DNA of 52,405 nt, taken from Candidatus Woesearchaeota archaeon CG10_big_fil_rev_8_21_14_0_10_33_12. Its GTDB lineage: Archaea; Nanobdellota; Nanobdellia; Woesearchaeales; CG1-02-33-12. The translations under genes and the position numbers were made by a program. The notes under the pieces are model-generated. The model searched no databases. It was not told the DNA's origin and was given only the letters and a program-made list of their open reading frames with translations. The stretch's first letter is position 1. Each line of letters starts with the position of its first letter. The DNA is taken from contig PCYE01000017.1 of NCBI GenBank assembly GCA_002762865.1, forward strand, positions 1 to 52,405, written 5' to 3'. Below, piece by piece: positions 3,501 through 49,106 of the stretch.

Positions 3501-3528
3501 TGAGTTATGTTGATAATAAACATAAACC

Positions 3529-4098
3529 ATGTTTTCAGAAATTAAAAAAGAGATAAAACAACTAAGAGAAATCTGCAGGGAAAAAGAGGTTGTTGATGTA
3601 GTTCTGCTAAGGTGTAGTGAAAAAGAAAAAACAAGCAAAATTGATTTGACAATAGTCTTTAAGGATAAAAAAACTGATTATAACAATAAGATTTTTCTTA
3701 AAATAAAAAAAATTTTTAATAAAAATCAAGCAAAGGTTAATATTAATTCTTTGCTTGCTGAGGATTTGTTTAAAGAGCCACTTTTTTTGGAGTTAGTCCA
3801 AAATGGGTTCAGCATAAAAAATAGTAAGCTTATCAGTAAAACACTTGATGTAGAAACCCTTGTTTTATTGACATATGATTTAAAGACACTTGACCATTCT
3901 AAAAAAACCCTTTTTGGTTATGCATTGAAAGGGAGGAAAGGCCAAAAAGGTTTCTTAGACCATTTAAATGGAAATGTTGTTGGAAGAAACAATGTTTTGA
4001 TTCCAATAAATAAGCTTAGTGAGTTAAAGGAATTTTTGAATACATGGCAGGTCAAATATTTTATTCAAAAATTTCTGAGGATACATGAAGGGGAATAA
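3529..4098 (+). CDS. hypothetical cytoplasmic protein (189 aa)
   Basis: Lys-rich soluble ORF that overlaps the start of the 960-aa adhesin gene by 14 nt, which implies co-transcription. No motif I can assign with confidence. Confidence 0.45.
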   Translation: MFSEIKKEIKQLREICREKEVVDVVLLRCSEKEKTSKIDLTIVFKDKKTDYNNKIFLKIKKIFNKNQAKVNINSLLAEDLFKEPLFLELVQNGFSIKNSKLISKTLDVETLVLLTYDLKTLDHSKKTLFGYALKGRKGQKGFLDHLNGNVVGRNNVLIPINKLSELKEFLNTWQVKYFIQKFLRIHEGE

Positions 4099-6967
4099 AA
4101 TAAGAAAAAAGGAAAGAGAAAATGGCTGGAGAAAAATAAAGAGCAAACACCATCTCTCAAATAATATAGTTGCCTTGCTAGTATTATTATTCATGTTGAC
4201 ATCTCTATTTTTTAACTTGATTATTTATAAAAATACAGAAACTCCTGCTAAACTTCCTAAAATAACTGGCAAGGCTTCAGAAGCAACAATCCGTCTTTGT
4301 ATAGGTGCACCGCCACCATATGTAACTGTTATTTACCCAGATGGTGGGGAAGTTATAAACGGAACAATAGTTGTGAATGCAACTGCAACACAAGCAGATG
4401 AAGATGAAGATACCAACTTAACTTTTACTTATGCTAATTTTGAGCACCTTATTGGAATTGATATTGATGAAAGTGATATATATTACAACCACAGCTGGGA
4501 TACAACAGCAATAGATGACGGAAACTGTAATTATAAAATATTTGCTCAGGCATATAGCAACAAGTCTGTATGTGGGGGAGTTTCAGGCACTGATGGTTCT
4601 AATTCTTATTTTTCAGTAAACAACATAGATGTTGAGCCAACCTGGAATAATTTCAAGAATAATCTAACAACTAATTTCTCAGAGTTTGAAAACTCATTAG
4701 AACTAGGCGATTGGACAATGATAGAAAATGCAACAATTGGTATTCTAGAAAAAGGATTAATAAATTTCTTAGCTCAAACAATAAACTTTGATGATGCTGA
4801 CTTTGATTCACATATTAACATATCATTTAATTATATCAGCCTTGATTCATCTGCTGATGCACTGCCATGCCTGAATAGGCCCGCAATACTGACTTTAAAT
4901 AATATAAGCTTTATACAGCCAAAAATACTAGCAGATAGTGAAAATTGCTCAAGCCCTCAATGCACAATAATAAATTATTCCAATGGAAATTTGGTATTTA
5001 GTGTAACAGATTTCTTATATTCCTATTCTTCTGTTGAGAATGCAAGTTTAAATCTTAATATATGGTACCAGCCAGAGAATATTACAAAATACATAAATGA
5101 AAATGTAACATTTTTTGCTAATCTTAGTGACAGTGCTTATGCCAATCCTATTAATGGAACAGGAACATACTGCAATATTAAATTCAACCTGACAGGTGAC
5201 TATACATCCTTTATTGATATGAACTTTAATCACAGTTCTTTATTATATGAATATAACAGGTCTTTTAGCTCGCCAGGAACATTTAATTACATTGTTTTCT
5301 GTAATGATTCTTATTATAATCTTGGAACAATAAGCAAAACAGATAATTTCACAATAACCAACAGGGATCCTGTTTTAATCTCAATTATGCCCAATGAGAC
5401 ATGGAATGAGGACACAATACTTACTGGCCGTGACCTGGATGATTACTTTATAGAGCCTGATGGAGAAACATTAACATTCATAAGTACAAGCATTCCAAAT
5501 ATTAATGTTTCAATAAACAATGTAACACATGTTGTTACATATATTCCTCAGGCAAATTTCTATGGCAACAGGACAATAAAGTTTTATGCATATGATCCTC
5601 ATAATGCCAGAGCAGAAAGCAATATAGTTTATTTGTTTGTAATAGACGTCCCAGAACCTACTCCTTCTACTAGTGGAGGTGGTGGTGGAGGGGGAACAAG
5701 AATAATATGTGAGGAATATTGGGAATGTACTAATTGGGGAGCATGCCTTCCATCAGGGATAAAGACAAGAACATGCAATGATCTTGCGGAATGTGGAACA
5801 GAGTTTAAGAAACCATTTGAGAGCATGGACTGTGAGTATATTGGAACATGCTCTGACCTTATAAAAAACTGCCATGAAGATTTATGTGAAATAGGTGTAG
5901 ATTGCGGAGGATCATGTCCTGCCTGTCCAACATGTTTTGACGGCATACAAAACCAGGGCGAAACAGGGATTGATTGCGGCGGCCCATGCCCTCTATGTAA
6001 AACATGTTTTGACGGCATACAAAACCAGGGCGAAACAGGGATTGATTGCGGCGGGCCTTGCCCTGCATGCCCAAGCTGTTCTGATGGAATAAAAAACTGC
6101 CATGATAGTCTGTGTGAAGAAGGTGTAGATTGTGGAGGACCATGCTCGGTATGCAAGGAAATAGAAATTCCTGCTGTTGTTAAAAGAGCTGTATGGCCAA
6201 CTATTTTACTATTAGGTATGCTTATTTCAGCAACAATATTTGTTATAATCAAATATCATAAGTATTACCAGCCTTTCATTGCAAAAATATTAATGAAGTT
6301 TATGCCTTTAATTGAGTTGTTTAAGAGAAAGAAAAAGATTGTGCCAGAGGAATTAAGAGTAAGGGAATCAATATTATCAAGATTAGACAAGCTTGAGAAA
6401 AACATTGATAAGAAAAGCATAGAAGAGCTTTCAAAGGAATTTGTTAGAATAATTAGAGATTTCTTGAATGAACTGCTAAAGATAGATTATGAGTTTACAT
6501 ATGAGGAATTCTGCAAGGAAATAGAAAAACACAAAATTTCAATGCCATTAAGGATAATGCTCATAACCTTTTTCAAAAAAATATCTGAAATAAGCTACAA
6601 GGGCTATAAGATGAAAAAGCCAGAGTTAAAGGAATTAATTAAAGAGGCAAAAATTATAGTCAAGTTTGGCTCAGAGGAATACTTGGAAGGGAAAACAGAA
6701 AAAGAAGAGCCAAAGGAAAAGGGATTAAAGAAAAAACAAAAGATTAAGAAAGAATCCATGTTAATGCTGGAAATATACAAGGATTTGATTAAAGCAAAAA
6801 AATCAATAAGAGAATCAGATATTGATTCTGTAAAGCTTGCTTACCTCAGGATAAAAGAGCTTTATGAAGAGCTGCCTGTTAATAAAAAAAGAAAAATCTA
6901 TAAAAAAATTGCTGGGCTATATGGCAAGATAAAGGAAAAAGAGCTGGGTAAGATTAAAATAAATTAA
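4085..6967 (+). CDS. 960-aa type-I-like surface adhesin: N-terminal helix, sequon-rich ectodomain, poly-Gly linker, Cys-rich modules, TM helix, Lys-rich cytoplasmic tail
   Basis: N-terminal helix (IVALLVLLFMLTSLFFNLIIY) followed by LPKITGKA. Many N-x-S/T sequons. SGGGGGGGT linker (about 5672-5698). Four C-x-DG-x-N...DCGG-x-C-x-x-C modules (5849-6160). TM helix VWPTILLLGMLISATIFVII (about 6191-6255). About 235-aa charged tail. Confidence 0.8.
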   Translation: MKGNKIRKKERENGWRKIKSKHHLSNNIVALLVLLFMLTSLFFNLIIYKNTETPAKLPKITGKASEATIRLCIGAPPPYVTVIYPDGGEVINGTIVVNATATQADEDEDTNLTFTYANFEHLIGIDIDESDIYYNHSWDTTAIDDGNCNYKIFAQAYSNKSVCGGVSGTDGSNSYFSVNNIDVEPTWNNFKNNLTTNFSEFENSLELGDWTMIENATIGILEKGLINFLAQTINFDDADFDSHINISFNYISLDSSADALPCLNRPAILTLNNISFIQPKILADSENCSSPQCTIINYSNGNLVFSVTDFLYSYSSVENASLNLNIWYQPENITKYINENVTFFANLSDSAYANPINGTGTYCNIKFNLTGDYTSFIDMNFNHSSLLYEYNRSFSSPGTFNYIVFCNDSYYNLGTISKTDNFTITNRDPVLISIMPNETWNEDTILTGRDLDDYFIEPDGETLTFISTSIPNINVSINNVTHVVTYIPQANFYGNRTIKFYAYDPHNARAESNIVYLFVIDVPEPTPSTSGGGGGGGTRIICEEYWECTNWGACLPSGIKTRTCNDLAECGTEFKKPFESMDCEYIGTCSDLIKNCHEDLCEIGVDCGGSCPACPTCFDGIQNQGETGIDCGGPCPLCKTCFDGIQNQGETGIDCGGPCPACPSCSDGIKNCHDSLCEEGVDCGGPCSVCKEIEIPAVVKRAVWPTILLLGMLISATIFVIIKYHKYYQPFIAKILMKFMPLIELFKRKKKIVPEELRVRESILSRLDKLEKNIDKKSIEELSKEFVRIIRDFLNELLKIDYEFTYEEFCKEIEKHKISMPLRIMLITFFKKISEISYKGYKMKKPELKELIKEAKIIVKFGSEEYLEGKTEKEEPKEKGLKKKQKIKKESMLMLEIYKDLIKAKKSIRESDIDSVKLAYLRIKELYEELPVNKKRKIYKKIAGLYGKIKEKELGKIKIN
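5930..6073 (+). repeat. near-perfect 72-bp (24-codon) tandem duplication inside the Cys-rich region
   Basis: ACATGTTTTGACGGCATACAAAACCAGGGCGAAACAGGGATTGATTGCGGCGG... occurs at 5930 and again at 6002. It encodes CFDGIQNQGETGIDCGGPCP(L/A)C twice. Only a few mismatches, all near the 3' end of the unit. Confidence 0.95.
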
Positions 6968-6977
6968 ACAATTAAAA

Positions 6978-9900
6978 ATGAAAAAGGCAAAAAAAGAAAT
7001 AAATAAGAAACAGTTGAAGTCAATAGTAACTCTGTTTTTAGTACTTAGTGTTATATATTCTGTTGCCCTAACAAACCAAAGAGGGGTTGAACCCTTTATA
7101 CAAGGGATTAGCAAGGGCACAAATAACCTTATTAATTTTGTCCGAAACCCAAGCATAACTGGCTTTGCTACAATCTTTGCCAACAACCAACCATATTTTG
7201 ACCCAAGTCCCCCTGATTATAACCTTACAGAAGATGTGCTCTTTGAGGTTCAGTTAAATGCAACTGACCCAGATAATGATACAATTATCTTTACAGATAA
7301 TTCTGATGCGCCTGAAGTTAACTGGTTAGTATTTAGTATGAATGGCACTGGCTTTATTTCTTTCACACCAACAAATGATGATGTTGGTGGTCATACAGTA
7401 GGAATTAGTATTGAGGATAGCATTAATGATCCTGTAACAGAGAATGTTATTTTCAGTGTGATTAATGTTAATGATCCACCACATATAGTAAACTGGACAC
7501 CAGTAAGCCTGACTCCAGGGACAACAGAAAACAACAGCATTGGTTTCTCATTTGAGTATAATGCAACAGATCCAGACTTGCCATATGGTGATATTTTAAT
7601 TACAAGATGGATTGTTGATGGAGTTATTGATTCAATAACAGTTAATGAAACCAGCGGCTCTTGGAGCTTTACAACAGGATTTTGCGAGCCCCGCAATAGA
7701 AATATAACCCTTGAAGTAAGTGATACATCAAATGAGACAGATATTGTAACATGGAATCTAAGCATAACCAATGTCAATAGAGAGCCGGCATGGAATGGAA
7801 CAATCAATAATATACTTTGGGAGGAAGATAATAATTTAATAAATAATATAAGCCTAGACAATTATTTCTATGACTCTGATTATAGCGAGTGTGGTGATAA
7901 TCCAAGCTTTTCATCAACAGGCAACACAAACATAACAATAAGCATAGACTCATCAACACCACATAGTGTAAGCTTTTATCCTGACTCAGACTGGTTTGGT
8001 ACAGAAGAAGTATTTTTCACAATAGATGATAGCTATGCAACAGCAGATAGCAACAATTTAACATTAAATGTTACTAATGTTCAGGATCCTCCAGAAATAG
8101 AGTTAATACCAGACCAACAAGCATATACCTATGTTTTGTTTAGTTATCAGGTAAATGCATCTGACACTGATAATGATATATTAACATATTATGATAACAC
8201 AACCTTGTTTAACATTAGCTCAATAACAGGGCTTATTAGCTTTACTCCAACAGCTGATAATATTGGCAATTACTCAATAAATATAACAGTAGGTGATGAA
8301 ATAGATAATGCATCTACATTAATGAGTCTTTCAATTCTTAATAATACTGTTCCAGTAATTGATCCAATAGCTAACCAGAATGTTGAAGAGAACACCTTAT
8401 TTGAATTAACAGTAAATGGATCTGATGCTGATGGGGATATCCTTGCATTCTCAAGCAATTATAGCAAAATGCTGAATCCTATATGGAGCAATGCAACATC
8501 TGCAAAATTCAGCTTTACTCCTCTTGACGGAGATAATGGAAACCATACAATACTTGTCACAGTAACTGATGCAAGAGGTGCAACAGATTCAACAACCTTT
8601 GTACTTGAGGTAATAGATGTCAATAACCCTCCTGTGCTTGATCCAATAGGAAACAGGATAGCAAAAATAAACCATACATTCAGCTTAAAAGCAAATGCAT
8701 CTGATCCTGACAATGGTGATACATTAATGTTTAGTAATAATGATACTGCCCTTTTTACAATACATTGGTCAACAGGCATGATTGGGTTTACCCCAGATGA
8801 TGGTGATGAAGGAAACCATTCAGTAAATATTTCAGTAACAGATGATGCAACAATACCAAAAATAGATTATGAAGTTGTGATATTTGAAGTCACAAAAAAT
8901 AGGGCTCCTGTAATTGACCCTATAGGTAACCAAACTGCAACAGAAGACTCAGAATTCAATCTAACAGTAACAGCATCTGACCTTGATGAAGATCCCTTAA
9001 TATTTAGTGACAATGCTTCTTTTTTTGATATTAATTCTTCAACAGGATTTATCAGCTTTATACCAAATGCAAGCCAGGTTGGTGTTTATCAGATACAAAT
9101 CAATGCAACAGATAGTGACAACGCAACAGGAACAGCAACTTTCTGGCTGAATATCAGCGAGGTAAATGATGCCCCTTATTTTTATCCTGCTCTTGCAAAT
9201 CAGACAGCAATAGAAGGAATCTTATTTTATTATGATATTAATGCAACAGATGAAGAAGGTGATACATTAACTTTCAGCAACAATAACACAGCCTTGTTTA
9301 CTATTGATCCTAATACAGGAGTTATATCTTTTACCCCAACAAATGATGATGTTGGGAATTATTCAATAAACATTTCAGTAACTGACAACAATAGCATAGC
9401 AAGCTCTGTTATAATACTCACAATATTAAACATTAACAATGCCCCAAATATAATCTCATACACTCCTGTTAACTTAACACCAAACACAGCAGAGAATTCA
9501 TCATTGCAGTTTAACACAACAGCAGAAGATGAGGATTTAATTCATGGGGATAGTTTAGCATATACATGGTATCTAGATTCTGTTAACCAGTCATCAAACC
9601 ACTCATGGCTTTATGAGCCTGACTTTGCAGCAGCTGGGCAACATAACATAACAGTAATAGTTTCTGATAACTCTAATGAAACAGACAGCGTAACATGGAA
9701 TGCTAGTGTCAGCAATACAAACAGGCTTCCAAGGTTTGGGATAAATACACAAACAACTGAAGCAGATTTCAGCTCTGGAACAAATAGCAACACAAACACA
9801 ACAGTACAGAGTGGAGATGTAATACTAAATAAACAGGATGGAACCAATTATTATGCATCTGGCACATTCACTTCTTCTGCAATAGATCTTTTGGCAGAGG

Positions 9901-11177
9901 GCAATATGAATATAACCTATATCAACTGGACAGCAACGATGCCTGCTGGAACAAATATAACACTACAAACAAGAACATCAGCAACAGAAGCTGGCTTAAC
10001 TAATGCAAGCTGGAGTTCTGTCTATATTAATAATTCATTAGTTGAATCTGAGGATTATCAATATATACAATACAGGGCAAATCTCACAACAACAAACACC
10101 TCTGTAACACCAACCTTGCATGATATAACAATTAATTATGTTATATCTGATTTCACAGGCAATGAAAACACAATATATGTCAATTGGGTAGACCTTGATG
10201 ATTATTTTTATGAAGATGATGCAGATGACACAATAACATATGATGTTAGTGGAAACTTATATATAGATATATCCATAGGAACTACCACCCATCAGGTTAT
10301 GCTCACCCCTGTAAGTGACTGGTATGGCTCAGAAACAATATTCTTTACAATGAATGACAGCTATAATACAACAAGAAGCAATGACATAACATTGACATTT
10401 GTGGAATATGAAGGTATAACACCTGGTGCAACAATAATCTATAGTAGTGGCGGAGGAGGGGGATCATCAACAACAATAATCAAGACAAAAAAAGTGGAAG
10501 TAGAAAAACCATATTCATTTAACTTAATCACTCCGCAAACAATGACTATGTACCAAAATGACACAGTAATTGCACCAATAACCTTAAACAATTATGGGGA
10601 GAATACATTAAATGAAATAAGCCTTAGTGCATCTGTTAACAACACTATTATTAAGTTAAGGTTTACAAAAGACTATTTTGCAACAATAGAAAAAAAGAGC
10701 TCTGTTGAAACAAGCCTTATCATAGAAGCATATACTGCCCTTGGTTCTTATGAGGTAGTTGTGTTTGCAAATGTAAAAGACCCGGAGTTTAATGATTCTG
10801 CCAAGTTCCTTATGAGCTCTATAGAGCTTGGCCAATGGAGCCAAAATGAGTTTGACACAAAAATAGCATTCACAAGGGATTTGCTTGAGGAAAATCCAGA
10901 GTGCCTTGAACTGAATGAACAGCTTATAGAAGCGCAAAGATTAATGGAAAAATCTGATTATAAGAGAGCACAGTTGTTAATACAGTCAGTTGTTGATACC
11001 TGCAAATATTTAATAACCACAAAAGAGCCAATAATAGAAGAACCAACCACTGAGAAACCTATTGGAGAAAGAACAAAGATTATTGCAGCAGGCATAGGGA
11101 TATTGTTTATTATAATATTGCTTCTTTATTTAATTGCTCGTAGTGGACCAAAGAGAAGTCATAGAAGAGTGCATTAA
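6978..11177 (+). CDS. 1399-aa giant surface adhesin with cadherin-like / He_PIG-type repeats and C-terminal TM anchor
   Basis: N-terminal helix followed by NPSITGFA. At least 8 repeats of about 95-100 aa (about 7179-9720) with the pattern N(D/N)(P/A)P..(D)PI.NQ...E...F.L.V.A.D.D.D.L.FS.N...F.I...TG.ISFTP....GN..I.I.V.D. GGGGGSS linker. CARDB-like module. Terminal helix IIAAGIGILFIIILLLYLIA plus RSGPKRSHRRVH. Dozens of N-x-S/T sequons. Confidence 0.85.
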   Translation: MKKAKKEINKKQLKSIVTLFLVLSVIYSVALTNQRGVEPFIQGISKGTNNLINFVRNPSITGFATIFANNQPYFDPSPPDYNLTEDVLFEVQLNATDPDNDTIIFTDNSDAPEVNWLVFSMNGTGFISFTPTNDDVGGHTVGISIEDSINDPVTENVIFSVINVNDPPHIVNWTPVSLTPGTTENNSIGFSFEYNATDPDLPYGDILITRWIVDGVIDSITVNETSGSWSFTTGFCEPRNRNITLEVSDTSNETDIVTWNLSITNVNREPAWNGTINNILWEEDNNLINNISLDNYFYDSDYSECGDNPSFSSTGNTNITISIDSSTPHSVSFYPDSDWFGTEEVFFTIDDSYATADSNNLTLNVTNVQDPPEIELIPDQQAYTYVLFSYQVNASDTDNDILTYYDNTTLFNISSITGLISFTPTADNIGNYSINITVGDEIDNASTLMSLSILNNTVPVIDPIANQNVEENTLFELTVNGSDADGDILAFSSNYSKMLNPIWSNATSAKFSFTPLDGDNGNHTILVTVTDARGATDSTTFVLEVIDVNNPPVLDPIGNRIAKINHTFSLKANASDPDNGDTLMFSNNDTALFTIHWSTGMIGFTPDDGDEGNHSVNISVTDDATIPKIDYEVVIFEVTKNRAPVIDPIGNQTATEDSEFNLTVTASDLDEDPLIFSDNASFFDINSSTGFISFIPNASQVGVYQIQINATDSDNATGTATFWLNISEVNDAPYFYPALANQTAIEGILFYYDINATDEEGDTLTFSNNNTALFTIDPNTGVISFTPTNDDVGNYSINISVTDNNSIASSVIILTILNINNAPNIISYTPVNLTPNTAENSSLQFNTTAEDEDLIHGDSLAYTWYLDSVNQSSNHSWLYEPDFAAAGQHNITVIVSDNSNETDSVTWNASVSNTNRLPRFGINTQTTEADFSSGTNSNTNTTVQSGDVILNKQDGTNYYASGTFTSSAIDLLAEGNMNITYINWTATMPAGTNITLQTRTSATEAGLTNASWSSVYINNSLVESEDYQYIQYRANLTTTNTSVTPTLHDITINYVISDFTGNENTIYVNWVDLDDYFYEDDADDTITYDVSGNLYIDISIGTTTHQVMLTPVSDWYGSETIFFTMNDSYNTTRSNDITLTFVEYEGITPGATIIYSSGGGGGSSTTIIKTKKVEVEKPYSFNLITPQTMTMYQNDTVIAPITLNNYGENTLNEISLSASVNNTIIKLRFTKDYFATIEKKSSVETSLIIEAYTALGSYEVVVFANVKDPEFNDSAKFLMSSIELGQWSQNEFDTKIAFTRDLLEENPECLELNEQLIEAQRLMEKSDYKRAQLLIQSVVDTCKYLITTKEPIIEEPTTEKPIGERTKIIAAGIGILFIIILLLYLIARSGPKRSHRRVH

Positions 11178-11899
11178 TCCTTATTAGCAGAAACAATCTC
11201 TGTATACAAGAGGAGGATATCATCATAAACATCTTTTTTATCTTCAACATCTAACTGGTTGTATTTTTCTTTAATCTTTACATACAGCTGCTTGCTCTTT
11301 TGGATTTTATTGTTATCAAGCATATCCAATGCCTTGATGAGCATTCCATGCACTTGCTCTAATTTGCTTTTTCCAAAATGTATTTTAAGTTTTGAGAGTA
11401 TAGGCTGTATTAAGATTAATAAAATATTTTGTTTCTTCCCAGATTCTTTTTTTTGCATTGCTGGTTTATTAATTCTAAGGAATTTTAGTATTTTATCAAG
11501 CCTTGTCTCTTTAACTTTCTGTTCATTAAATGTCAATTTTTCAAATAATTTTAAAAATTCATTTAATAATTTCTTTAACTCTGAATCAGGCAATCTTTCA
11601 TCGCTATATTCAACAACAGACAATTTTTTTAAGAAAAAAATTATTTTTTCTTTCAAATTTTTGTCTATCCTTCTTCTCTCTAACTCATTGCCTAACTCCT
11701 CAAATGTAAATTCATACTTAATCTTGAATAATTCAGCAAAAAAAAGCCTTATAACATGAAAAAATTGTATAAAATTGTCATCTTTATTTTTTTTAGAAAA
11801 ATGTTTTCTGAATGCCCCTATTCTTTTAAGAGTATTATTTTTTACTAGTTCAAGCCTGTCAGGTTTCTTTTTTTTTCTCTTGAAAAGATTTAAATACAT
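11174..11899 (-). CDS. soluble 241-aa protein paralogous to the cytoplasmic tail of the 960-aa adhesin (possible DUF4129-like helical domain)
   Basis: Colinear similarity to residues about 745-950 of ORF 4085..6967: LFKRKKKKPDRLEL vs LFKRKKKIVPEEL; FFAELFKIKYEFTFEELGNELERRRI vs FLNELLKIDYEFTYEEFCKEIEKHKI; LYVKIKEKYNQLDVEDKKDVYDDILLLY vs AYLRIKELYEELPVNKKRKIYKKIAGLY. TTTATATA on the minus strand (11925-11932) lies 25 nt upstream of the ATG. Confidence 0.7.
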   Translation of the reverse strand: MYLNLFKRKKKKPDRLELVKNNTLKRIGAFRKHFSKKNKDDNFIQFFHVIRLFFAELFKIKYEFTFEELGNELERRRIDKNLKEKIIFFLKKLSVVEYSDERLPDSELKKLLNEFLKLFEKLTFNEQKVKETRLDKILKFLRINKPAMQKKESGKKQNILLILIQPILSKLKIHFGKSKLEQVHGMLIKALDMLDNNKIQKSKQLYVKIKEKYNQLDVEDKKDVYDDILLLYTEIVSANKD

Positions 11900-11973
11900 C
11901 TTAGTTTAGATTATTAAATATTCATATATAAATCTATCGTGTAATATTTTACTCTTTTTAAGTAGAACAACAA

Positions 11974-11983
11974 AATATAAATA
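11974..11983 (+). promoter_or_regulatory. TATA-like box (AATATAAATA) for the moxR operon, leaderless geometry
   Basis: Centre lies about 28 nt upstream of ATG 12006. No SD sequence in between. Confidence 0.4.
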
Positions 11984-12005
11984 TTAGGAATTGCTTGATT
12001 AATGT

Positions 12006-12992
12006 ATGGATGAGAAAAAGTTTGCTGAAAAAATAATCAATAACCAGAAACTTATTGATAAAATAAAGAAAGAAATCTCAAATGTAGTTGTTGGCCAAGA
12101 AAAAGTGATTAATGGATTCTTAAGAGCTCTGTTATCAGATGGCCATGTGCTTGTAGAGGGCGTTCCTGGGCTTGCTAAAACACTTATTGTAAGGACATTA
12201 TCTAGTGTTATGGGCTGTGACTTTAGCAGGATTCAGTTCACTCCAGACCTTTTACCAACAGATATAATAGGTATAACAGCTTATGAAAGGGAAAAGGGTT
12301 TTTATGTTCTTAAGGGGCCAATATTCAGCAATTTTATTCTTGCTGATGAGATAAACAGGGCTCCTCCAAAAGTGCAGTCTGCCTTGCTTGAATGCATGCA
12401 GGAAAAACAGGTAACTATTGGGAAAGAAACATTTAATATGCCCCCACCTTTTTTTGTTCTTGCAACACAAAATCCATTGGAGCAGATAGGTGTTTATCCA
12501 CTGCCAGAGGCACAGATTGACAGGTTCTTGTTCAAGATTAACATAAGCTACCCAAACATTAAGGAAGAACAAATTATACTTAATAACAATATAACAATAA
12601 AGAAGTTTGATGATTTCAACTTAAAATCAATGGTATCTCCTGAAAAAATCTTGGAATTGCAGGCAGATGTAAAAAAGATTTACCTCGACAAGAAGATTGA
12701 AAAGTATATTATCCAGATAGTTGATGCAACAAGGAATCCTGATAAGTACAAGATTAAGCTAGGACATTATATAGAATGGGGTGCTTCCCCAAGGGCATCC
12801 ATTGGACTGTTTATTGCATCAAAGGCAGAGGCATTAATGCAGGGAAAAACATTTGTAACACCTCAATATGTAAAAGAGGTTGCATATGATGTTCTAAGGC
12901 ACAGGATTAGTTTAAATTATGAAGCGCAGTCAGAGAACATAAAGATTGAAGATGTAATCTCAGAGATTCTAGCAAGAGTGCCTGTTCCATAA
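12006..12992 (+). CDS. MoxR-family AAA+ ATPase
   Basis: Walker A GVPGLAKT and Walker B ILADEINRAPPKVQSALLECMQE. The FTPDLLPTDIIG and ATQNP...PEAQ(I)DRF motifs are characteristic of MoxR/COG0714. Confidence 0.9.
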   Translation: MDEKKFAEKIINNQKLIDKIKKEISNVVVGQEKVINGFLRALLSDGHVLVEGVPGLAKTLIVRTLSSVMGCDFSRIQFTPDLLPTDIIGITAYEREKGFYVLKGPIFSNFILADEINRAPPKVQSALLECMQEKQVTIGKETFNMPPPFFVLATQNPLEQIGVYPLPEAQIDRFLFKINISYPNIKEEQIILNNNITIKKFDDFNLKSMVSPEKILELQADVKKIYLDKKIEKYIIQIVDATRNPDKYKIKLGHYIEWGASPRASIGLFIASKAEALMQGKTFVTPQYVKEVAYDVLRHRISLNYEAQSENIKIEDVISEILARVPVP

Positions 12993-13006: not shown

Positions 13007-13894
13007 ATGGAAGAATTAAAGCTAAACTTAAAACCCCTTATTAAAAGATTGGAAGTACATACTAAAAGAGGGCTTACAAGCACTTTAACAGGCTCTTATA
13101 AAAGCACATTTAAAGGCAAGGGTCTTGACTTTGTAGGATACAGACCTTATGATATTGGTGATGACGCTAATATGATTGACTGGAAAGCAACCTTGAGGTC
13201 ACAGGATTTATTAGTTAAGATTCTTGTGGAGGAAAGGAATGTTAATATTGTCTTTTTAGTTGATGTTAGTTCAAGCATGTCTTTTGCATCCATTGATAAG
13301 CTGAAAAATGAGTATGCAGCAGAGCTTGTTGCCTCGTTGAGTTTTGCAGCTATACAGGCAGGTGATTCAGTTGGTTTGGTTATGTTTAATGATAAGATAG
13401 TCAAATTCCTTCCTCCAAATATGGGCAATAAGCAATATTTCATGATAATAAACTCATTGTCTAACCCAAAACTCTATGACGGAAAATTTGATTTTATAAA
13501 GGTGATAAATGATTTGATAAATTCTTTCAAAAAAGGGGCAATAATTGTTATTGTATCGGACTTTATTGGGCTTGGTAAAGATTGGGAAAATTATTTAAGA
13601 GCTGTATCTGAAAAATTTGAAGTAATTGGCATAATGGTTAGAGATCCTAGAGATTATGAAATACCAGCAGATGTTGGCCAGATTGTTATTTCAGACCCTT
13701 ATTCTGACAAAGAGGTATTGATAGATACAGCAAAAATAAAAGATGAATATGAATCTGTTGTTAAAGAGCAAATAAAACATATAAAAGAGACTTTTATAAA
13801 TTCAAAATCAGATTTTTTAGAGTTAAGAACAGATAAGCCTTTCCTAGATTATATAATAAAATTTTTTTTGATGAGGAATAAGAGGCGAATATGA
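13007..13894 (+). CDS. DUF58 family protein (vWA-like, MoxR partner)
   Basis: YRPYDIGDDANMIDWKATLRSQDLLVK signature, then VFLVDVSSSM (MIDAS-like). Lies directly downstream of moxR, the canonical gene order. Confidence 0.85.
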   Translation: MEELKLNLKPLIKRLEVHTKRGLTSTLTGSYKSTFKGKGLDFVGYRPYDIGDDANMIDWKATLRSQDLLVKILVEERNVNIVFLVDVSSSMSFASIDKLKNEYAAELVASLSFAAIQAGDSVGLVMFNDKIVKFLPPNMGNKQYFMIINSLSNPKLYDGKFDFIKVINDLINSFKKGAIIVIVSDFIGLGKDWENYLRAVSEKFEVIGIMVRDPRDYEIPADVGQIVISDPYSDKEVLIDTAKIKDEYESVVKEQIKHIKETFINSKSDFLELRTDKPFLDYIIKFFLMRNKRRI

Positions 13895-14847
13895 TTACAA
13901 TAAACTTTACTAACATTTATTACCTCTGGCTTTTGGTAAGCATACCTCTGCTTATTATAACCCACTTCTTTGTTTTAGGTTACCTTAAGAGAAGGGCAGT
14001 AAAGTTTGCTAATTTTGAAGCTATAAAAAGGGTTACCGGAACAAAATTTGATATAAAAAATACAAGAACAATATCAAAAAATATGTTTTTATTGATTGTA
14101 AGAATTTTTGTTTTATTGCTCCTTATATTCTCTGTAGCAGGCCCTGTCCTGTGGTACAGCGGCCAGGGCAGTGAGTTTGATTTTGTCCTTGCTATAGATG
14201 CTTCAAGTTCAATGTTGGCAGATGATTTTATACCGTACAGGCTTGATGCTGCGAGAAAGGCTTCTTCATTGTTTGTTGAAAGCTTAAAAGCAAGAACAAT
14301 GGTAGGCATTGTTTCTTTTGCAGGAACAAGCTTTGTTGAGCAGGATTTAATAGATAATATGAAAAAGACAGAAGAGGTTATTAATAATATAAGAATTAAG
14401 AGTGTTGGAGGAACTGATATAGGGGGTGCAATAACAACTTCAACAAACCTTTTGTTAAATCAGGAAAACTCAAGGGTTATTATCCTGCTGACAGATGGGC
14501 AGAGTACTGTTGGAACACCTCTCGATGTGGCTATTGAATATGCAAACAAAAATTATGTAACAATTAACACTATAGGCATTGGTACAGAAGAAGGGGGGAC
14601 ATTCATAAAAGGTGACTTGCTTTCAAAACTTGATGAGCCAACATTGATTGAAATAGCTCAAAAAACCGGAGGGAAATACTATAAGGCTGAGAATGAGGAA
14701 GAATTAGCCAATGCTTTTGATGATATCTCCTCCTCTACAGAAGAAAAAATACCTATAGACTTATCAATGGGTTTTATGATGACTGCCCTGGCACTATTGT
14801 TTCTTGAGTGGGGCATGATAAATACAAAATACAGAACATTGCCATAG
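13891..14847 (+). CDS. BatA-like membrane-anchored von Willebrand factor A protein
   Basis: 4-nt start/stop overlap with the DUF58 gene. Two N-terminal TM helices and one C-terminal TM helix. MIDAS motif LAIDASSSM plus GGTDIG and LLTDGQ. Confidence 0.85.
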   Translation: MITINFTNIYYLWLLVSIPLLIITHFFVLGYLKRRAVKFANFEAIKRVTGTKFDIKNTRTISKNMFLLIVRIFVLLLLIFSVAGPVLWYSGQGSEFDFVLAIDASSSMLADDFIPYRLDAARKASSLFVESLKARTMVGIVSFAGTSFVEQDLIDNMKKTEEVINNIRIKSVGGTDIGGAITTSTNLLLNQENSRVIILLTDGQSTVGTPLDVAIEYANKNYVTINTIGIGTEEGGTFIKGDLLSKLDEPTLIEIAQKTGGKYYKAENEEELANAFDDISSSTEEKIPIDLSMGFMMTALALLFLEWGMINTKYRTLP

Positions 14848-14977: not shown

Positions 14978-15157
14978 ATGGAATTTAGCGAGAAAAGACT
15001 GGAACAGATAAAGAACATGCCAATAGTTGAGAGCAAGGTTTTAAAGAGTAAGGATGGAAAGTTTGTTATGCACAAGACAGTCATAACAGATATAAAGCCT
15101 GTAAAATACTATGAAGCTGTTCTTGAAAAAGCTCCGGAAGAATTAGCAGAAGAGTAA
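14978..15157 (+). CDS. small 59-aa protein missing from the ORF track (below its length cutoff)
   Basis: AGGAGG (14965-14970) lies 7 nt upstream of ATG 14978. Translation: MEFSEKRLEQIKNMPIVESKVLKSKDGKFVMHKTVITDIKPVKYYEAVLEKAPEELAEE, stop TAA at 15155-15157. It fills an otherwise empty 316-nt gap. Confidence 0.5.
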   Translation: MEFSEKRLEQIKNMPIVESKVLKSKDGKFVMHKTVITDIKPVKYYEAVLEKAPEELAEE

Positions 15158-44007: not shown

Positions 44008-44772
44008 ATGGATGCTTCCCAAATCTGGATACCTTTGTTTATTACTTTTCTTGCAGGCATATCCACAGGAATAGGAAGCCTCATTTCCCTTTTTATCAAA
44101 AAGTTTAAAGACAGTTACCTTCACTTTTTTCTTGGATTATCAGCGGGCGTAATGATTTATGTCTCTTTTGCAGAACTTCTTCCTGAGGCAGTTGAAAACC
44201 TTGGGTTTATTCTTGGAAATGCAGGATTCTTTATAGGGATTTTTTTTATTTTATTTATTGATTTTAAAATTCCTCATGAGTATATAGAAGAGCATGTCAG
44301 TAAGAATGTATGCAAGAGAGAGCGCAGGCTCATGAAGGCAGGTGTTTTTACTGCTGTGGGAATTGCAATACACAACTTTCCCGAAGGAATTGCTGTGTTT
44401 ATGAGTTCTTTAAGTGACTTATCCTTAGGAATTCCATTAGCTGTTGCAATAGCAATACATAATATTCCGGAAGGCATAGCAGTTGCAATGCCTATTTATT
44501 ATGCAACAAAAGACAGGAAAAAGGCCTTTAAATTTTCGCTTCTTTCAGGCCTTGCAGAGCCATTAGGAGCTTTGATTGGAATCTTAATACTGCTTCCTTT
44601 TTTAACGCCGCAGATATTGTTTTTCTTTTTGGCATTTGTTGCAGGCATAATGGTTTTCATAAGCTTTGATGAATTGTTGCCAATATGCTTTAAGGAAGAT
44701 AGTAGTCATGTGCCAATCCTTGGTTTAATAACAGGAATGCTTATCATGGCTTCAAGTTTATATCTTCTTTAG
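44008..44772 (+). CDS. zupT: ZIP-family zinc transporter ZupT
   Basis: Duplicated AIHNFPEGIAV / AIHNIPEGIAVA motifs. 254 aa with about 8 TM helices. Confidence 0.9.
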   Translation: MDASQIWIPLFITFLAGISTGIGSLISLFIKKFKDSYLHFFLGLSAGVMIYVSFAELLPEAVENLGFILGNAGFFIGIFFILFIDFKIPHEYIEEHVSKNVCKRERRLMKAGVFTAVGIAIHNFPEGIAVFMSSLSDLSLGIPLAVAIAIHNIPEGIAVAMPIYYATKDRKKAFKFSLLSGLAEPLGALIGILILLPFLTPQILFFFLAFVAGIMVFISFDELLPICFKEDSSHVPILGLITGMLIMASSLYLL

Positions 44773-45425
44773 AAATCATGTTCCTTTTCATATTCTTTAA
44801 AATATCTTTCTCTTAGCTGATTTATTTCCTTCATAATAGGAATATTAACTCCTTTTTCTTCAAGAATATCAAGCCGTTCTCCAACCCATGTAATCCATAC
44901 ATCCTGTCTGCTTTTTTTGATTTGATTTTTTAATTCATTAAGAATAATTTCCCATTTTATTCCTCTCTTTGCGAGACTAATGCAGTCTTCTAAGTCACCT
45001 TCTCTTTCAGTCATTGTTTTGAATAGGAAAATATCCTCATTGGAGCAAAAATTTAGTTTAATTTTTTCAAGATCAATAAAGGTAATTGCTCTTTCCATCA
45101 TCCCATTTGAAATAGAAAATCTTCCGCAAATTTCTTTCTGGAACAGATCAATCCTAAAGTCATCCCTTATGAATATCTGGTTTAAGTTCATATTCTTATA
45201 TTCAATATTGGGAATTTTTACTGTGAAGTTTATAGAATTTAATGCGTTTTTTAAAATCATAAATTCTTCTTTTGTTTCTATAACTAAATCTATATCTTTT
45301 GTTGCTGGTTTTAATCCCTGCTGTAGCAACACTGCTCCACCTATCACAAAGATTTTTACTTTCTTTCTTAATGAAGCATCTATCTCTTTAAACAATTTCT
45401 CTATCTGCTTAAATTCTGATATCAT
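44769..45425 (-). CDS. AbiEii/DUF6036-like nucleotidyltransferase (putative toxin)
   Basis: NTase signature VIGGAVLLQQGLKPATKDIDLVI (GG-x-A...T-x-DIDL). Its start overlaps the stop of the upstream wHTH gene by 17 nt. Confidence 0.55.
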   Translation of the reverse strand: MISEFKQIEKLFKEIDASLRKKVKIFVIGGAVLLQQGLKPATKDIDLVIETKEEFMILKNALNSINFTVKIPNIEYKNMNLNQIFIRDDFRIDLFQKEICGRFSISNGMMERAITFIDLEKIKLNFCSNEDIFLFKTMTEREGDLEDCISLAKRGIKWEIILNELKNQIKKSRQDVWITWVGERLDILEEKGVNIPIMKEINQLRERYFKEYEKEHDF

Positions 45426-46272: not shown

Positions 46273-46430
46273 ATTTCCACAAAAACATTACTTATTTATA
46301 TACTTTTCGTATTTATATGGAATTATTTACTTAATCAGCTATTTTTCAGTTAAACTTATACACTCCTTTTATTACCGAAAGATTTAAATAGTAAAGCTTA
46401 CTTTACGTTAAGCATACTTTACATTTGAAG

Positions 46431-46628
46431 ATGGAACTCAGGAAAAATAAATTGCAGGATTGCAGGAAAAAAGCTTATTTGAGCCAGGAAAAGCTTGCTG
46501 AAAAGGCAGGAGTCACAAGGCAGACAATAATTTCAATAGAAAGCAGCAGGTATGTGCCGTCTTTACAGCTGGCATTAAAGCTTGCAAAAATCTTCAAATG
46601 CAGAGTAGAGGACTTATTCAGCCTGTGA
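46431..46628 (+). CDS. XRE-family HTH transcriptional regulator (65 aa)
   Basis: LSQEKLAEKAGVTRQTIISIESSRYVPSLQLALKLAKIF is a canonical Cro/C1-type HTH. ATG 46431 is preferred over the track's TTG at 46425. Confidence 0.85.
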   Translation: MELRKNKLQDCRKKAYLSQEKLAEKAGVTRQTIISIESSRYVPSLQLALKLAKIFKCRVEDLFSL

Positions 46629-46637
46629 GGTGTTAAA

Positions 46638-47036: not shown

Positions 47037-47081
47037 GGTTATAGTTAAATTTATATAATATCTTATTCAGTAGAAAATAAA

Positions 47082-47525: not shown

Positions 47526-47667
47526 TCCTGATAAGAAGGTTAGAAATTTCATATAACATATGCTGTTTATGAAGTTTGCTGAGTGAGTGTAGCGTTTGAG
47601 TTTAAGCGTAAAATATAAATACTTATTAAAAATACAGCATATTGATATAAAAAACGCAGAAGTCAAA

Positions 47668-49026: not shown

Positions 49027-49106
49027 ATAATAAAGTAATCCTAATCCCTGGTTTCTATCAAATTTTATGAGAGGATTTGCAATCTATGCCAAAGATTCTA
49101 AAAGCT

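What the first reader, a model, noticed from the sequence alone, without database searches (positions are those of the whole stretch)
11174..11899. Free-standing paralog of an adhesin's cytoplasmic tail, encoded tail-to-tail with the second adhesin and next to MoxR/DUF58/vWA
The 241-aa soluble protein aligns colinearly over about 190 residues with the cytoplasmic tail of the 960-aa adhesin (nt about 6313-6964). Shared blocks include LFKRKKK, (I/K)YEFT(Y/F)EE(F/L) and the LY..IKE.Y..L....K..Y tail. The 1399-aa adhesin ends right after its TM helix, so it has no tail. Its stop codon overlaps the stop of this gene (TTAA at 11174-11177). The Y-x-F-T-x-E-E helical pattern resembles DUF4129, a domain typically found beside DUF58 and MoxR genes, and those genes start 107 nt away. 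This suggests an inside-out link: MoxR/DUF58/vWA chaperone-like machinery acting on adhesin tails, or on a detachable tail subunit.
Basis: partly seen in the sequence, partly recalled or inferred. Interest (0 to 1): 0.6.

Follow-up and report, generated by a model that had tools for sequence, protein, structure and literature searches.

The report
Adhesin-tail domain partnered with MoxR operon
A small soluble protein of a tiny DPANN archaeon is an old copy of the inner tail of the neighbouring giant surface protein, and its gene sits head-to-head with a MoxR ATPase operon across many related genera, which points to what this poorly understood ATPase machine acts on.

Summary
The 241-aa ORF (11174-11899, minus strand) aligns with the cytoplasmic tail of the 960-aa surface protein (BLASTP E 1e-23, 31% identity; z = 19.5 against shuffles). 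It is a real gene (dN/dS 0.14-0.19).

Both proteins carry an unnamed two-part helical domain. An N-module forms a helical bundle with a Y-E-F-T-x-x-E signature. A C-terminal three-helix "hairpin" unit follows a flexible linker.

In a sample of 201 genomes of the phylum, 76 carry the N-module. In at least 54 of these, an N-module gene lies within 3 kb of a MoxR gene, and 50 of the 54 are divergent. These MoxRs form one clade. At least 13 genomes repeat the window's layout of a tailed giant protein plus a free copy.

DUF4129 membership is not supported by the Pfam HMM or by hhalign. Only position and gene context resemble it.

Best reading (inferred): the N-module is the cytoplasmic handle through which MoxR-DUF58 engages surface-protein tails, and the free protein is an adaptor or regulator.

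This scan had already reported the same pairing on other DNA (e1-5104896, e1-1516106, e1-3367695). My tests agree with those reports independently.

The parts
11174..11899 (-). Gene for the 241-aa soluble protein (P0001). It has a short hydrophobic plus polybasic N-terminus, an N-module, a disordered Lys-rich linker and a C-terminal three-helix unit.
   Evidence: ORF and translation. No TM helix. Orthologs at 69-88% identity almost all have the same 241-aa length. dN/dS is 0.14-0.19. AlphaFold2 mean pLDDT is 84.
11519..11785 (-). N-module of P0001 (residues about 39-127). It is a helical bundle with the signature F-F...Y-E-F-T-x-E-E-L...E-Y. E68 is conserved in 97% of 150 family members.
   Evidence: Profile match, E = 1.8e-29. 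Residue conservation. Helices H39-58, H66-74, H80-98 and H105-122 have pLDDT above 90.
11180..11365 (-). C-terminal three-helix 'hairpin' unit of P0001 (residues about 179-240; AKxLYxKIKxxYxxLxxxxKKxxYxxIxxLY).
   Evidence: Alignment A1. Hairpin HMM hit, E = 1.3e-23. Helices H179-195, H199-213 and H218-240 have pLDDT above 90.
11864..11899 (-). N-terminal M-Y-L-N-L-F-K-R-K-K-K-K stretch. It matches the juxtamembrane LIELFKRKKK of the adhesin tail and is a candidate membrane-proximal or lipid-binding segment (inferred).
   Evidence: Pairwise alignment. The motif recurs at the N-terminus of many free-standing members.
4085..6967 (+). Gene for the 960-aa surface protein. It has an N-terminal anchor, an Ig-like and Cys-rich ectodomain, a TM helix at residues 704-722 and a cytoplasmic tail of about 238 aa that carries the paralogous N-module and hairpin.
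   Evidence: Translation. Pfam Big_9 match. TM prediction. The AlphaFold2 model of residues 700-960 has mean pLDDT 87 and the same helix order as P0001.
6419..6679 (+). N-module inside the adhesin tail.
   Evidence: Profile match, E = 1.2e-25. BLASTP alignment.
6764..6940 (+). Hairpin unit at the end of the adhesin tail.
   Evidence: Hairpin HMM hit, E = 7.7e-15.
6978..11177 (+). Gene for the 1399-aa surface protein (Big_9, He_PIG, cadherin-like and PKD repeats). It ends 12 residues after its TM helix and has no tail.
   Evidence: Orthologs occupy the same position in L001 and L031-L038.
11900..12005 (.). 106-nt divergent spacer with two back-to-back TATA-like boxes. TTTATATA on the minus strand (11925-11932) ends 25 nt before the ATG of the 241-aa gene. 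ATATAAAT (11975-11982) ends 23 nt before the moxR ATG. Both genes are probably leaderless and share a control region (inferred).
   Evidence: Direct reading of the sequence.
12006..12992 (+). MoxR-type AAA+ ATPase (AAA_3 plus AAA_lid_2), soluble.
   Evidence: Pfam E = 1.6e-60. No TM helix. 52% identical to the MoxR of a Bacteroides Bat operon. Member of the clade of N-module-adjacent MoxRs.
13007..13894 (+). DUF58 protein (vWA-like fold, DxSxS motif in D-V-S-S-S), soluble.
   Evidence: Pfam E = 1.2e-49. Sequence and absence of TM helices.
13891..14847 (+). BatA-type membrane vWA protein. TM helices at 6-24, 65-83 and 287-305, with a MIDAS motif (D-A-S-S-S, GGT, TDG). The vWA domain is probably outside the cell.
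   Evidence: Pfam BatA and VWA. NCBIfam BatA. TM layout. The same TM layout is found in Borrelia BB0173, whose vWA domain was shown experimentally to face the periplasm (PMC5700661).

Best explanation
Shown. The 241-aa protein and the tail of the 960-aa surface protein belong to one unnamed family of cytoplasmic domains in DPANN (Woesearchaeota/Nanoarchaeia-type) archaea. The family has two parts: an N-module (a helical bundle of about 90 aa with a Y-E-F-T-x-x-E signature) and one or more C-terminal three-helix 'hairpin' units joined by flexible linkers. The gene that carries the N-module is a fixed, divergently transcribed partner of one specific lineage of MoxR-DUF58-BatA operons. A second, anciently diverged copy forms the tail of the adjacent giant surface protein.

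Inferred. The N-module is the cytoplasmic docking element through which the soluble MoxR AAA+ ATPase and its vWA-like partner DUF58 engage membrane-proximal proteins. By analogy with other MoxR/vWA and Rea1-MIDAS systems, where a MIDAS site captures an acidic residue of the target, the nearly invariant Glu68 (with Glu72 on the same helix face) is the candidate ligand.

The free protein probably sits at the inner membrane face through its hydrophobic plus polybasic N-terminus. It would act as an adaptor or regulator. Its N-module would face MoxR-DUF58. Its hairpin unit would pair with the hairpin units found on the tails of this and at least four other surface proteins in the genome. BatA, with its vWA domain outside, would contact the ectodomains.

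The net function would be ATP-driven assembly, activation or remodelling of an adhesin complex from inside the cell.
For: Paralogy and reality of the gene:
- BLASTP E = 1e-23 and shuffle z = 19.5.
- dN/dS 0.14-0.19.
- Orthologs at 69-88% identity almost all keep the 241-aa length.
- AlphaFold2 models of both copies are confident and show the same helix order.

Size of the family:
- 337 cluster representatives at E <= 1e-3. Most of the best 150 examined have no TM helix, and a minority follow a TM helix or lie at the end of 600-950-aa proteins.

Linkage to MoxR:
- Gene order is conserved at 57% identity.
- 31 of 41 loci found through the motif show MoxR, DUF58 or BatA within the fetched flanks, down to 25-30% identity.
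- In a sample of 201 genomes, the N-module is in 76 genomes (55 of 158 genera). In at least 54 of the 76 it lies within 3 kb of a MoxR gene, with a median of 414 nt between domain hits. 50 of the 54 are divergent.
- 20 of 21 N-module-adjacent MoxRs fall in one clade (SH-aLRT 97). The second MoxR of the same genome (contig C46) lies elsewhere in the tree and has no N-module neighbour.
- The window's layout, a tailed giant protein and a free copy 4-8 kb apart, recurs in at least 13 genomes of the sample.

Age of the duplication:
- The adhesin tails of 8 genomes group together, apart from the clade of the 241-aa protein.

Mechanistic hints:
- E68 is conserved at 97% and E72 at 83%.
- DUF58 and BatA carry DxSxS motifs. 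MoxR and DUF58 have no TM helices. The BatA TM layout matches BB0173, whose vWA domain faces the periplasm.
- The hairpin unit alone sits right after the TM helix of four other surface proteins, and occurs five times in a soluble 653-aa protein of the same genome.
- Parallel cases elsewhere: haloarchaeal plasmids encode Ig-repeat surface proteins of about 700-730 aa with a TM helix and a cytoplasmic DUF4129 tail next to DUF58 and MoxR. An actinobacterial locus has an Ig-like protein, MoxR, DUF58 and a transglutaminase-domain protein. The PFNA cluster of bifidobacteria is similar (PMC8430577). Makarova et al. predicted archaeal MoxR-vWA-Ig-protein complexes (PMC5898192).
Against: - No physical interaction has been tested. 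Everything beyond paralogy and gene linkage is inference from neighbourhood and from analogy with other MoxR/vWA systems.
- The fold is a generic helical bundle with no significant match in the PDB (best Foldseek E 0.09-0.5), so structure gives no functional clue.
- 62 or more genomes of the sample have a MoxR but no N-module, so the module is not a general MoxR requirement.
- One member of the linked MoxR clade (G062) has the tail-less adhesin directly upstream of moxR and no N-module gene.
- One genome (G001) keeps the tailed adhesin plus free copy next to a shortened MoxR and has no DUF58 or BatA in the fetched stretch.
- Divergent orientation shows shared regulation at most. It does not show one complex.
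Confidence: 0.5

Rival explanations
1. The domain is a self-associating cytoplasmic scaffold. It clusters or anchors surface-protein tails through hairpin-hairpin and bundle-bundle contacts and has no direct dealings with MoxR/DUF58. The adjacency would only reflect co-regulation within one surface island.
For: Hairpin units sit on the tails of at least five surface proteins and occur as tandem arrays in soluble proteins. MoxR-adjacent members carry 0-4 hairpins with long low-complexity linkers, as scaffold proteins do. The fold is a plain helical bundle. G001 keeps the pair beside a decayed MoxR and with no DUF58 or BatA in the fetched stretch.
Against: The part that is always kept next to MoxR is the N-module, not the hairpin. 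Some MoxR-adjacent genes are N-module only, at 119-138 aa. The linkage is to one MoxR clade and persists at 25-30% identity across at least 50 genomes. That is tighter than simple membership of an island.
Confidence: 0.2
2. The free protein is a decoy or competitive regulator. As a soluble mimic of the adhesin tail, it would titrate MoxR-DUF58, or another tail-binding factor, away from the adhesin and so set the activity state of the surface complex.
For: The free and tethered copies share the same two-module architecture and the juxtamembrane motif. The free gene shares a 106-nt control region with moxR. The tethered-plus-free pairing recurs in at least 13 genomes.
Against: In many lineages the MoxR-adjacent copy is itself membrane-anchored or carries an ectodomain (L047, L057, L061, L065, L067, L071). 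That does not fit a soluble decoy. The two copies diverged long ago to 31% identity, so they need not bind the same partner.
Confidence: 0.15
3. The N-module is a very divergent true member of DUF4129 (PF13559), and the locus is simply a DPANN version of the DUF4129-DUF58-MoxR clusters.
For: The position is the same: directly after a TM helix, on the cytoplasmic side, at the end of Ig-repeat surface proteins. The neighbours are the same, as in the haloarchaeal loci L022 and L023. By eye there is a similar helix / T-x-x-E helix / helix-ending-in-aromatic pattern. No canonical DUF4129 was found in 201 genomes of the phylum, so the niche is free.
Against: The Pfam HMM gives no hit at E <= 10 to the protein or the tail, and none at E <= 1 to 24 family members or to the whole genome. 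hhalign gives probability 0.3% locally and 0.1% globally. HMM cross-searches score at most 12 bits. The test had low power, with six DUF4129 seeds and very different amino-acid composition.
Confidence: 0.1
4. The similarity is a low-complexity artefact, or the 241-aa ORF is a decaying fragment of a former adhesin gene.
For: Both sequences are rich in Lys, Glu and Ile. The ORF abuts an adhesin gene.
Against: z = 19.5 against composition-preserving shuffles. BLASTP with composition correction gives E = 1e-23. dN/dS is 0.14-0.19. The 241-aa length is kept in dozens of orthologs. The structure prediction is confident. There is no upstream room for a longer gene, because moxR starts 106 nt away on the other strand.
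Confidence: 0.02

Closest known systems
DUF4129 (PF13559) tails in DUF4129-DUF58-MoxR and TgpA clusters, for example Bacillus TgpA-family proteins and haloarchaeal plasmid loci
   Same: A small all-helical domain on the cytoplasmic side directly after a TM helix, often at the C-end of a large surface protein. It is encoded next to DUF58 and a MoxR ATPase.
   Different: There is no detectable sequence or profile similarity. The DPANN domain has an additional hairpin unit. It also occurs as a soluble free-standing protein divergent from moxR. No transglutaminase core is present.
Bacteroides aerotolerance (Bat) operon and its spirochaete relatives (MoxR, DUF58, BatA, BatB, BatC, BatD, BatE)
   Same: The window's MoxR is 52% identical to a Bacteroides Bat-operon MoxR. 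The order MoxR-DUF58-...-BatA is the same. BatA has the same three-TM layout as Borrelia BB0173.
   Different: Only a minimal triad is present. There is no BatB, no TPR proteins BatC/BatE and no BatD. The Bat operon has no described partner like the N-module protein and no tailed adhesin. The function of Bat proteins is itself unresolved (PMC3557215, abstract listed).
Predicted archaeal secretion or membrane-remodelling complex around arCOG01314 (DUF4350), MoxR (COG0714), vWA proteins and Ig-like surface proteins (Makarova et al. 2015, PMC5898192)
   Same: An archaeal neighbourhood that joins a MoxR ATPase and vWA proteins with membrane-anchored Ig-like surface proteins. It is interpreted as one envelope complex.
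   Different: No DUF4350 match was found among the window proteins scanned. That paper, in the passages read, does not describe a cytoplasmic tail domain or a soluble paralog.
PFNA cluster of bifidobacteria (pkb2-fn3-MoxR-duf58-tgm) and the similar Actinomyces locus
   Same: A large FN3 or Ig-like surface protein is encoded directly beside MoxR and DUF58.
   Different: The partner membrane protein there is a TgpA-type transglutaminase, and a Ser/Thr kinase is part of the cluster. There is no N-module family.
MIDAS-dependent AAA+ remodelling systems: Rea1/Midasin with Rsa4/Ytm1, CbbQ-CbbO with Rubisco, NorQ-NorD (from established knowledge, not tested here)
   Same: These are the model for how it may work. 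A vWA/MIDAS domain captures an acidic residue of the target and a MoxR-type or dynein-type AAA+ ring pulls on it.
   Different: No evidence here that DUF58 binds the N-module. The analogy is the basis of the hypothesis, not a finding.

Membership tests
DUF4129 (PF13559) | Match to the Pfam HMM at or above the gathering score (24.8 bits) | tested here: not met
   There was no hit for P0001 or the tail at E <= 10, and none for 24 family members at E <= 1. A whole-genome six-frame search gave no match at E <= 1. None was found in 201 genomes of the phylum at E <= 0.001. The same search detects true DUF4129 in control genomes and in Bacillus and haloarchaeal records.
DUF4129 (PF13559) | Profile-profile similarity to bona fide DUF4129 domains | tested here: not met
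   hhalign of the 150-sequence N-module profile against six DUF4129 seeds gave probability 0.3% locally and 0.1% globally. HMM cross-searches gave at most 11.7 bits. The test had low power because the seed alignment was small.
DUF4129 (PF13559) | Cytoplasmic position right after a TM helix, and neighbourhood with DUF58 and MoxR (typical, not defining) | tested here: met
   In the tail copy the module follows the TM helix at 704-722. MoxR/DUF58 adjacency is shown.
Bat-type MoxR-DUF58-BatA operon | MoxR (AAA_3), DUF58 and a BatA-type membrane vWA protein in one co-directional cluster | tested here: met
   Pfam E-values are 1.6e-60 for MoxR and 1.2e-49 for DUF58. BatA and VWA also match. The NCBIfam BatA model gives E = 7.8e-30, below its equivalog cut-off.
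Bat-type MoxR-DUF58-BatA operon | Full Bat complement: BatB, the TPR proteins BatC and BatE, and BatD | tested here: not met
   After batA come only a 58-aa ORF, RNase HII and a TrmB regulator. Compare the Bacteroides operon.
TgpA / PFNA-type cluster | Transglutaminase-core membrane protein next to MoxR-DUF58 | tested here: not met
   No Transglut_core or DUF3488 match was found in the 960-aa or 1399-aa proteins, or in the other four neighbours scanned at E <= 0.1.
arCOG01314 (DUF4350) system of Makarova et al. 2015 | Presence of a DUF4350 / arCOG01314 membrane-anchored protein in the cluster | tested here: not met
   Pfam scans of the upstream island proteins (1165, 1830, 3008, 3529) gave no DUF4350 hit. 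The 393-aa protein has the same signal plus C-terminal TM topology but no sequence match.
HEPN domain | Four-helix bundle with the R-x(4-6)-H catalytic motif | tested here: not met
   HEPN proteins are the best compact Foldseek hits for both models (2hsb, 3mfn, 2q00; TM-score to target 0.5-0.6), but with E = 0.3-1.5. No conserved Arg or His appears among the conserved positions.
J domain (DnaJ) | Helix II - HPD loop - helix III | tested here: not met
   The hairpin profile gives only weak hits to J domains in PDB sequences (E about 0.06). There is no HPD motif in the alignment and no Foldseek support.

The most novel reading that the evidence does not exclude
The N-module would be the missing substrate-recognition handle of Bat-type MoxR-DUF58 machines. 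The MIDAS site of cytoplasmic DUF58 would capture the invariant Glu68 of the module on adhesin tails and on a free adaptor. The MoxR ring would then pull on it to switch giant surface adhesins between states from inside the cell. That would be an archaeal inside-out adhesion control, analogous in logic to integrin activation, in host-dependent DPANN archaea.
Probability: 0.2. Interest if true: 0.8.

Novelty: new variant of a known kind. Interest (0 to 1): 0.6.

Why it matters
MoxR-DUF58-vWA (Bat-type) modules are among the most widespread prokaryotic gene clusters without a known substrate or mechanism. Here one MoxR lineage has a fixed, small, well-folding partner domain. The same domain also sits on the inner tail of the adjacent giant surface protein. 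This names a concrete candidate client and a single residue (Glu68) to mutate, so the question of what these ATPases act on becomes testable with a few recombinant proteins.

DPANN archaea depend on attachment to host cells. A cytoplasmic machine coupled to their adhesins would bear directly on how they attach. The domain family has 337 cluster representatives, occurs in 55 of 158 sampled genera, and has no Pfam or NCBIfam model.

Tried and rejected
1. DUF4129 membership. The Pfam HMM and a whole-genome HMM search were negative. So were hhalign and HMM cross-searches against six true DUF4129 domains collected from Bacillus and haloarchaeal plasmid records.
It returned only Bacillus cereus-group sequences at 83-95% identity, which are useless as a diverse profile.
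3. Reaching other phyla for DUF4129 seeds through a contig titled 'Alphaproteobacteria' failed. Its genome holds no DUF4129.
4. J-domain idea for the hairpin unit: only E about 0.06 hits and no HPD motif. Rejected.
5. HEPN-like fold: recurrent but non-significant Foldseek hits, and no R-x(4-6)-H motif. Rejected as homology and kept only as a description of the topology.
6. The profile search of the large protein database with alignment A1 returned mostly close relatives.
7. The search for related loci with A1 failed because no stretch was conserved enough. It worked with the closer set A2.
8. NCBIfam and further Pfam scans of the free protein, the multi-hairpin proteins and the upstream island proteins gave nothing significant.
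10. The 'gene fission from the tail-less adhesin' idea. The genes are convergent and the duplication is ancient. Rejected.


Full report
**Observation**

The window (G000:C28) comes from a 1.05-Mb, 94%-complete genome of a DPANN archaeon, with about 33% G+C. Relatives are titled Woesearchaeota or Nanoarchaeia.

ORF 11174-11899 on the minus strand encodes 241 aa with no TM helix. It aligns colinearly with residues 743-949 of the 960-aa surface protein encoded at 4085-6967. That segment lies after the protein's TM helix at residues 704-722. BLASTP with composition-based statistics gives E = 1e-23, 31% identity and 50% positives over 234 columns.

Against 1000 shuffles that keep composition, the local alignment score has z = 19.5. 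The N-terminal part alone gives 15.9 and the C-terminal part 7.8.

Other details of the finding also hold:
- The 1399-aa protein (6978-11177) ends 12 residues after its TM helix.
- The two convergent stop codons overlap in TTAA at 11174-11177. In a relative with 57% identity the genes only abut, so the overlap reflects a compact genome and is not a feature in itself.
- moxR starts at 12006, followed by DUF58 (13007-13894) and a BatA-type vWA gene (13891-14847).

**The ORF is a real gene**

Database orthologs at 69-88% identity almost all have exactly 241 residues. dN/dS against five orthologs is 0.14-0.19. AlphaFold2 with a 38-sequence alignment gives mean pLDDT 84.

**Anatomy of the domain**

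The model of the free protein has these parts:
- helices at 15-33, 39-58, 66-74, 80-98 and 105-122, all with pLDDT above 90
- a further helix at 126-142
- a disordered Lys-rich stretch at 148-176
- a three-helix unit at 179-195, 199-213 and 218-240, with pLDDT above 90

A second model, of residues 700-960 of the adhesin, has mean pLDDT 87. It shows the TM helix, an amphipathic juxtamembrane helix and then the same order of helices.

I call the first part the N-module and the last part the hairpin unit.

In 150 non-redundant N-modules the most conserved positions are E68 (97%), Y62 (90%), F53, F64 and T65 (87% each), L69 (85%), E72 (83%), Y98 (81%) and E97 (79%).

The free protein begins M-Y-L-N-L-F-K-R-K-K-K-K. 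This matches the juxtamembrane L-I-E-L-F-K-R-K-K-K of the tail. A hydrophobic pair followed by a polybasic run recurs at the N-terminus of many free members. I infer peripheral membrane association from this. It was not tested.

**Size and shape of the family**

A full phmmer scan of 1.8 billion cluster representatives finds 337 proteins at E <= 1e-3. Of the best 150, most are proteins with no TM helix. A minority carry the domain after an N-terminal TM helix, or at the C-end of 600-950-aa proteins that have a signal anchor and a second TM helix.

No Pfam or NCBIfam model matches. Foldseek against the PDB finds nothing significant for either model (best E 0.09-0.5). The recurrent compact hits are HEPN-type four-helix bundles at TM-score 0.5-0.6 to the target. 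No conserved Arg or His appears among the conserved positions of the family, so the HEPN R-x(4-6)-H motif is not supported. A weak sequence-profile resemblance of the hairpin to J-domain helices II-III (E about 0.06) lacks the HPD motif.

**DUF4129**

- The PF13559 HMM does not hit the protein, the tail, 24 family members or the whole genome in six frames.
- It is not found in any of 201 genomes of the phylum, although the same search finds it in control genomes.
- I collected six true DUF4129 domains. One came from a Bacillus TgpA gene next to MoxR-DUF58. Five came from haloarchaeal plasmids. hhalign against the 150-sequence N-module profile gives probability 0.3%, and HMM cross-searches stay at or below 12 bits.

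The seed set is small and its composition is very different, so remote homology is not excluded. Membership cannot be claimed.

What does hold is an analogy. In Halorussus and Natrinema plasmids, an Ig-repeat surface protein of about 700-730 aa with a TM helix and a C-terminal cytoplasmic DUF4129 lies beside DUF58 and MoxR.

**Linkage to MoxR**

This is the strongest result. At 57% identity the whole order is kept: 956-aa protein, 1397-aa protein, free gene, then divergent MoxR, DUF58 and BatA.

A motif-seeded scan of one genome per species returned 41 loci, down to 24-30% identity. They fall into two groups:
- Tails of homologs of the 960-aa protein.
- A gene that is usually head-to-head with MoxR-DUF58-BatA. 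This gene is highly variable. It can be the N-module alone (119-138 aa), the N-module plus one hairpin (about 240 aa), or the N-module plus two to four hairpins joined by Ser/Asn/Pro-rich linkers (630-754 aa). It can also be a TM helix or an ectodomain plus TM helix, followed by the N-module (316-421 aa).

The constant element beside MoxR is the N-module.

In an even sample of 201 genomes of the phylum:
- The N-module profile hits 76 genomes (55 of 158 genera), with one to three copies each.
- MoxR AAA_3 hits 138 genomes.
- In at least 54 of the 76, an N-module gene lies within 3 kb of a listed MoxR hit, with a median of 414 nt between domain hits. 50 of these 54 are divergent. This is a lower bound, because 42 MoxR hits were not listed and many contigs are short.
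- At least 13 genomes also carry a second N-module at the end of a 600-3000-aa frame 4-8 kb from a shorter N-module gene, nearly always in convergent orientation. This is the layout of the window.

In a tree of 42 MoxRs from the sample and the window's own genome plus four outside sequences, 20 of 21 N-module-adjacent MoxRs form one clade (SH-aLRT 97) near a Bacteroides Bat-type MoxR. The second MoxR of the same genome (contig C46) sits in a larger vWA operon without any N-module and falls in another clade.

There are exceptions. G062 has the tail-less adhesin directly upstream of moxR and no N-module gene. G001 keeps the tailed adhesin plus free copy beside a shortened MoxR, with no DUF58 or BatA in the fetched stretch.

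**Age of the duplication**

In a tree of the domain, the tails of eight genomes group together (SH-aLRT 83), apart from the clade that holds the 241-aa protein. The two copies in the window are therefore old paralogs kept side by side, not a recent local copy. The free gene is not a split-off piece of the tail-less adhesin.

**Topology of the partners**

MoxR and DUF58 have no TM helices. DUF58 carries D-V-S-S-S. BatA has TM helices at 6-24, 65-83 and 287-305, a basic loop between the first two, and a full MIDAS motif. Borrelia BB0173 has the same layout, and its vWA domain was shown experimentally to face the periplasm (PMC5700661). The triad therefore probably spans the membrane. The ATPase and DUF58 would be inside, where the N-modules are. 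The BatA vWA domain would be outside, where the ectodomains are.

The 106-nt spacer holds two back-to-back TATA-like boxes. Each ends 23-25 nt before its ATG. This fits leaderless divergent transcription from one control region.

**The hairpin unit in the rest of the genome**

In the same genome the hairpin alone sits right after the TM helix of four other surface proteins. It also occurs five times in a soluble 653-aa protein. It looks like a general cytoplasmic tail motif of this organism's surface proteins, and a plausible protein-protein pairing unit.

**How it most likely works**

Shown: paralogy, fold class, purifying selection, and co-inheritance with one MoxR-DUF58-BatA lineage and with a tailed giant surface protein.

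Inferred: the N-module is the handle by which MoxR-DUF58 engages membrane-proximal clients. Established knowledge of Rea1-Rsa4/Ytm1, CbbQO-Rubisco and integrin I-domains shows that MIDAS sites capture an acidic side chain. On that basis, Glu68 (with Glu72 one turn further along the helix) is the candidate ligand for DUF58. The free protein would be an adaptor or regulator at the inner membrane face, bridging MoxR-DUF58 to hairpin-bearing tails. BatA would contact the ectodomains. The output would be ATP-driven assembly or remodelling of the adhesin complex.

Rivals are a MoxR-independent scaffold, a soluble decoy of the tail, and a true but very divergent DUF4129. An artefact or pseudogene reading is excluded.

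**Comparison with what is known**

The closest described things are:
- DUF4129-DUF58-MoxR and TgpA clusters
- the Bat operon
- the bifidobacterial PFNA cluster (PMC8430577)
- the archaeal MoxR-vWA-Ig-protein complex predicted by Makarova et al. (PMC5898192)

None of these describes this domain or the tethered-plus-free pairing. Full-text searches for MoxR together with Woesearchaeota, or with DUF4129, returned nothing. The single paper listed for MoxR with von Willebrand and DPANN concerns bacterial diversity-generating retroelements and was not read.

Earlier follow-up reports of this scan on other genomes reached the same reading. I re-derived the key points independently on this window. I added the MoxR-clade test, the 201-genome adjacency count, the dN/dS values, the shuffle controls and the two structure models.

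**Verdict**

This is a real, conserved and unnamed domain family. It defines a new variant of the MoxR-DUF58 envelope modules and comes with a clear, testable mechanistic hypothesis.

Noticed in passing
G000 contigs C47 (11083-13248, minus), C34 (55087-55806, minus), C4 (32333-33370, minus), C37 (988-2931, minus), C49 (6453-8411, minus): The hairpin unit alone (A-K-x-x-Y-x-x-I-x-x-x-Y-x-x-L-P-x-x-x-K-K-x-x-Y-x-x-I-x-x-L-Y) sits directly after the TM helix of four other surface proteins. It occurs five times in tandem in a soluble 653-aa protein with a Pro-rich C-end. It looks like a general cytoplasmic tail code of this organism.
   Followed up: partly
G000:C46 about 44200-51467 (minus strand): This is a second MoxR-DUF58 operon. 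It has a 262-aa TM protein, a 160-aa coiled-coil protein, a 746-aa vWA protein and a BatA-like protein, but no N-module gene. Its MoxR belongs to a different clade from the window's.
   Followed up: partly
L022 10303-12507 and L023 10347-12446 (haloarchaeal plasmids): Ig-repeat surface proteins of about 700-730 aa, annotated 'hypothetical', end in a TM helix plus a cytoplasmic DUF4129. They lie beside DUF58, two small hypothetical genes, MoxR and DUF4350. This is a haloarchaeal counterpart of the layout studied here.
   Followed up: partly
window about 14978-15154 (plus strand); also L001 6767-6943: A conserved 58-aa ORF with a GGAGG site lies just downstream of batA. It is kept at the same place in a relative with 57% identity. 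It may be a fourth gene of the operon.
   Followed up: no
L113 (G001:C2:33000-40000), ORF 3517-4284: One genome keeps the tailed adhesin and the free N-module gene next to a shortened 255-aa MoxR-like gene. That gene retains the Walker A motif and the lid but lacks the middle of the AAA domain. A Rad50/SMC-like ATPase follows in place of DUF58 and BatA.
   Followed up: no
L112 (G062:C3:1-1400): In one genome whose MoxR belongs to the N-module-linked clade, the tail-less adhesin is followed directly by moxR on the same strand. There is no N-module gene between them, which looks like a loss.
   Followed up: no
Record titles of L031-L071: Many contigs that clearly belong to Woesearchaeota-type DPANN genomes are titled 'uncultured Methanosarcinales archaeon'. 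One (L048) is titled 'Alphaproteobacteria bacterium'. These titles probably come from mislabelled or misbinned public MAGs.
   Followed up: no
window 11925-11932 and 11975-11982: Two back-to-back TATA-like boxes sit in the 106-nt spacer, each 23-25 nt before an ATG. This implies divergent, leaderless transcription of the 241-aa gene and moxR.
   Followed up: partly
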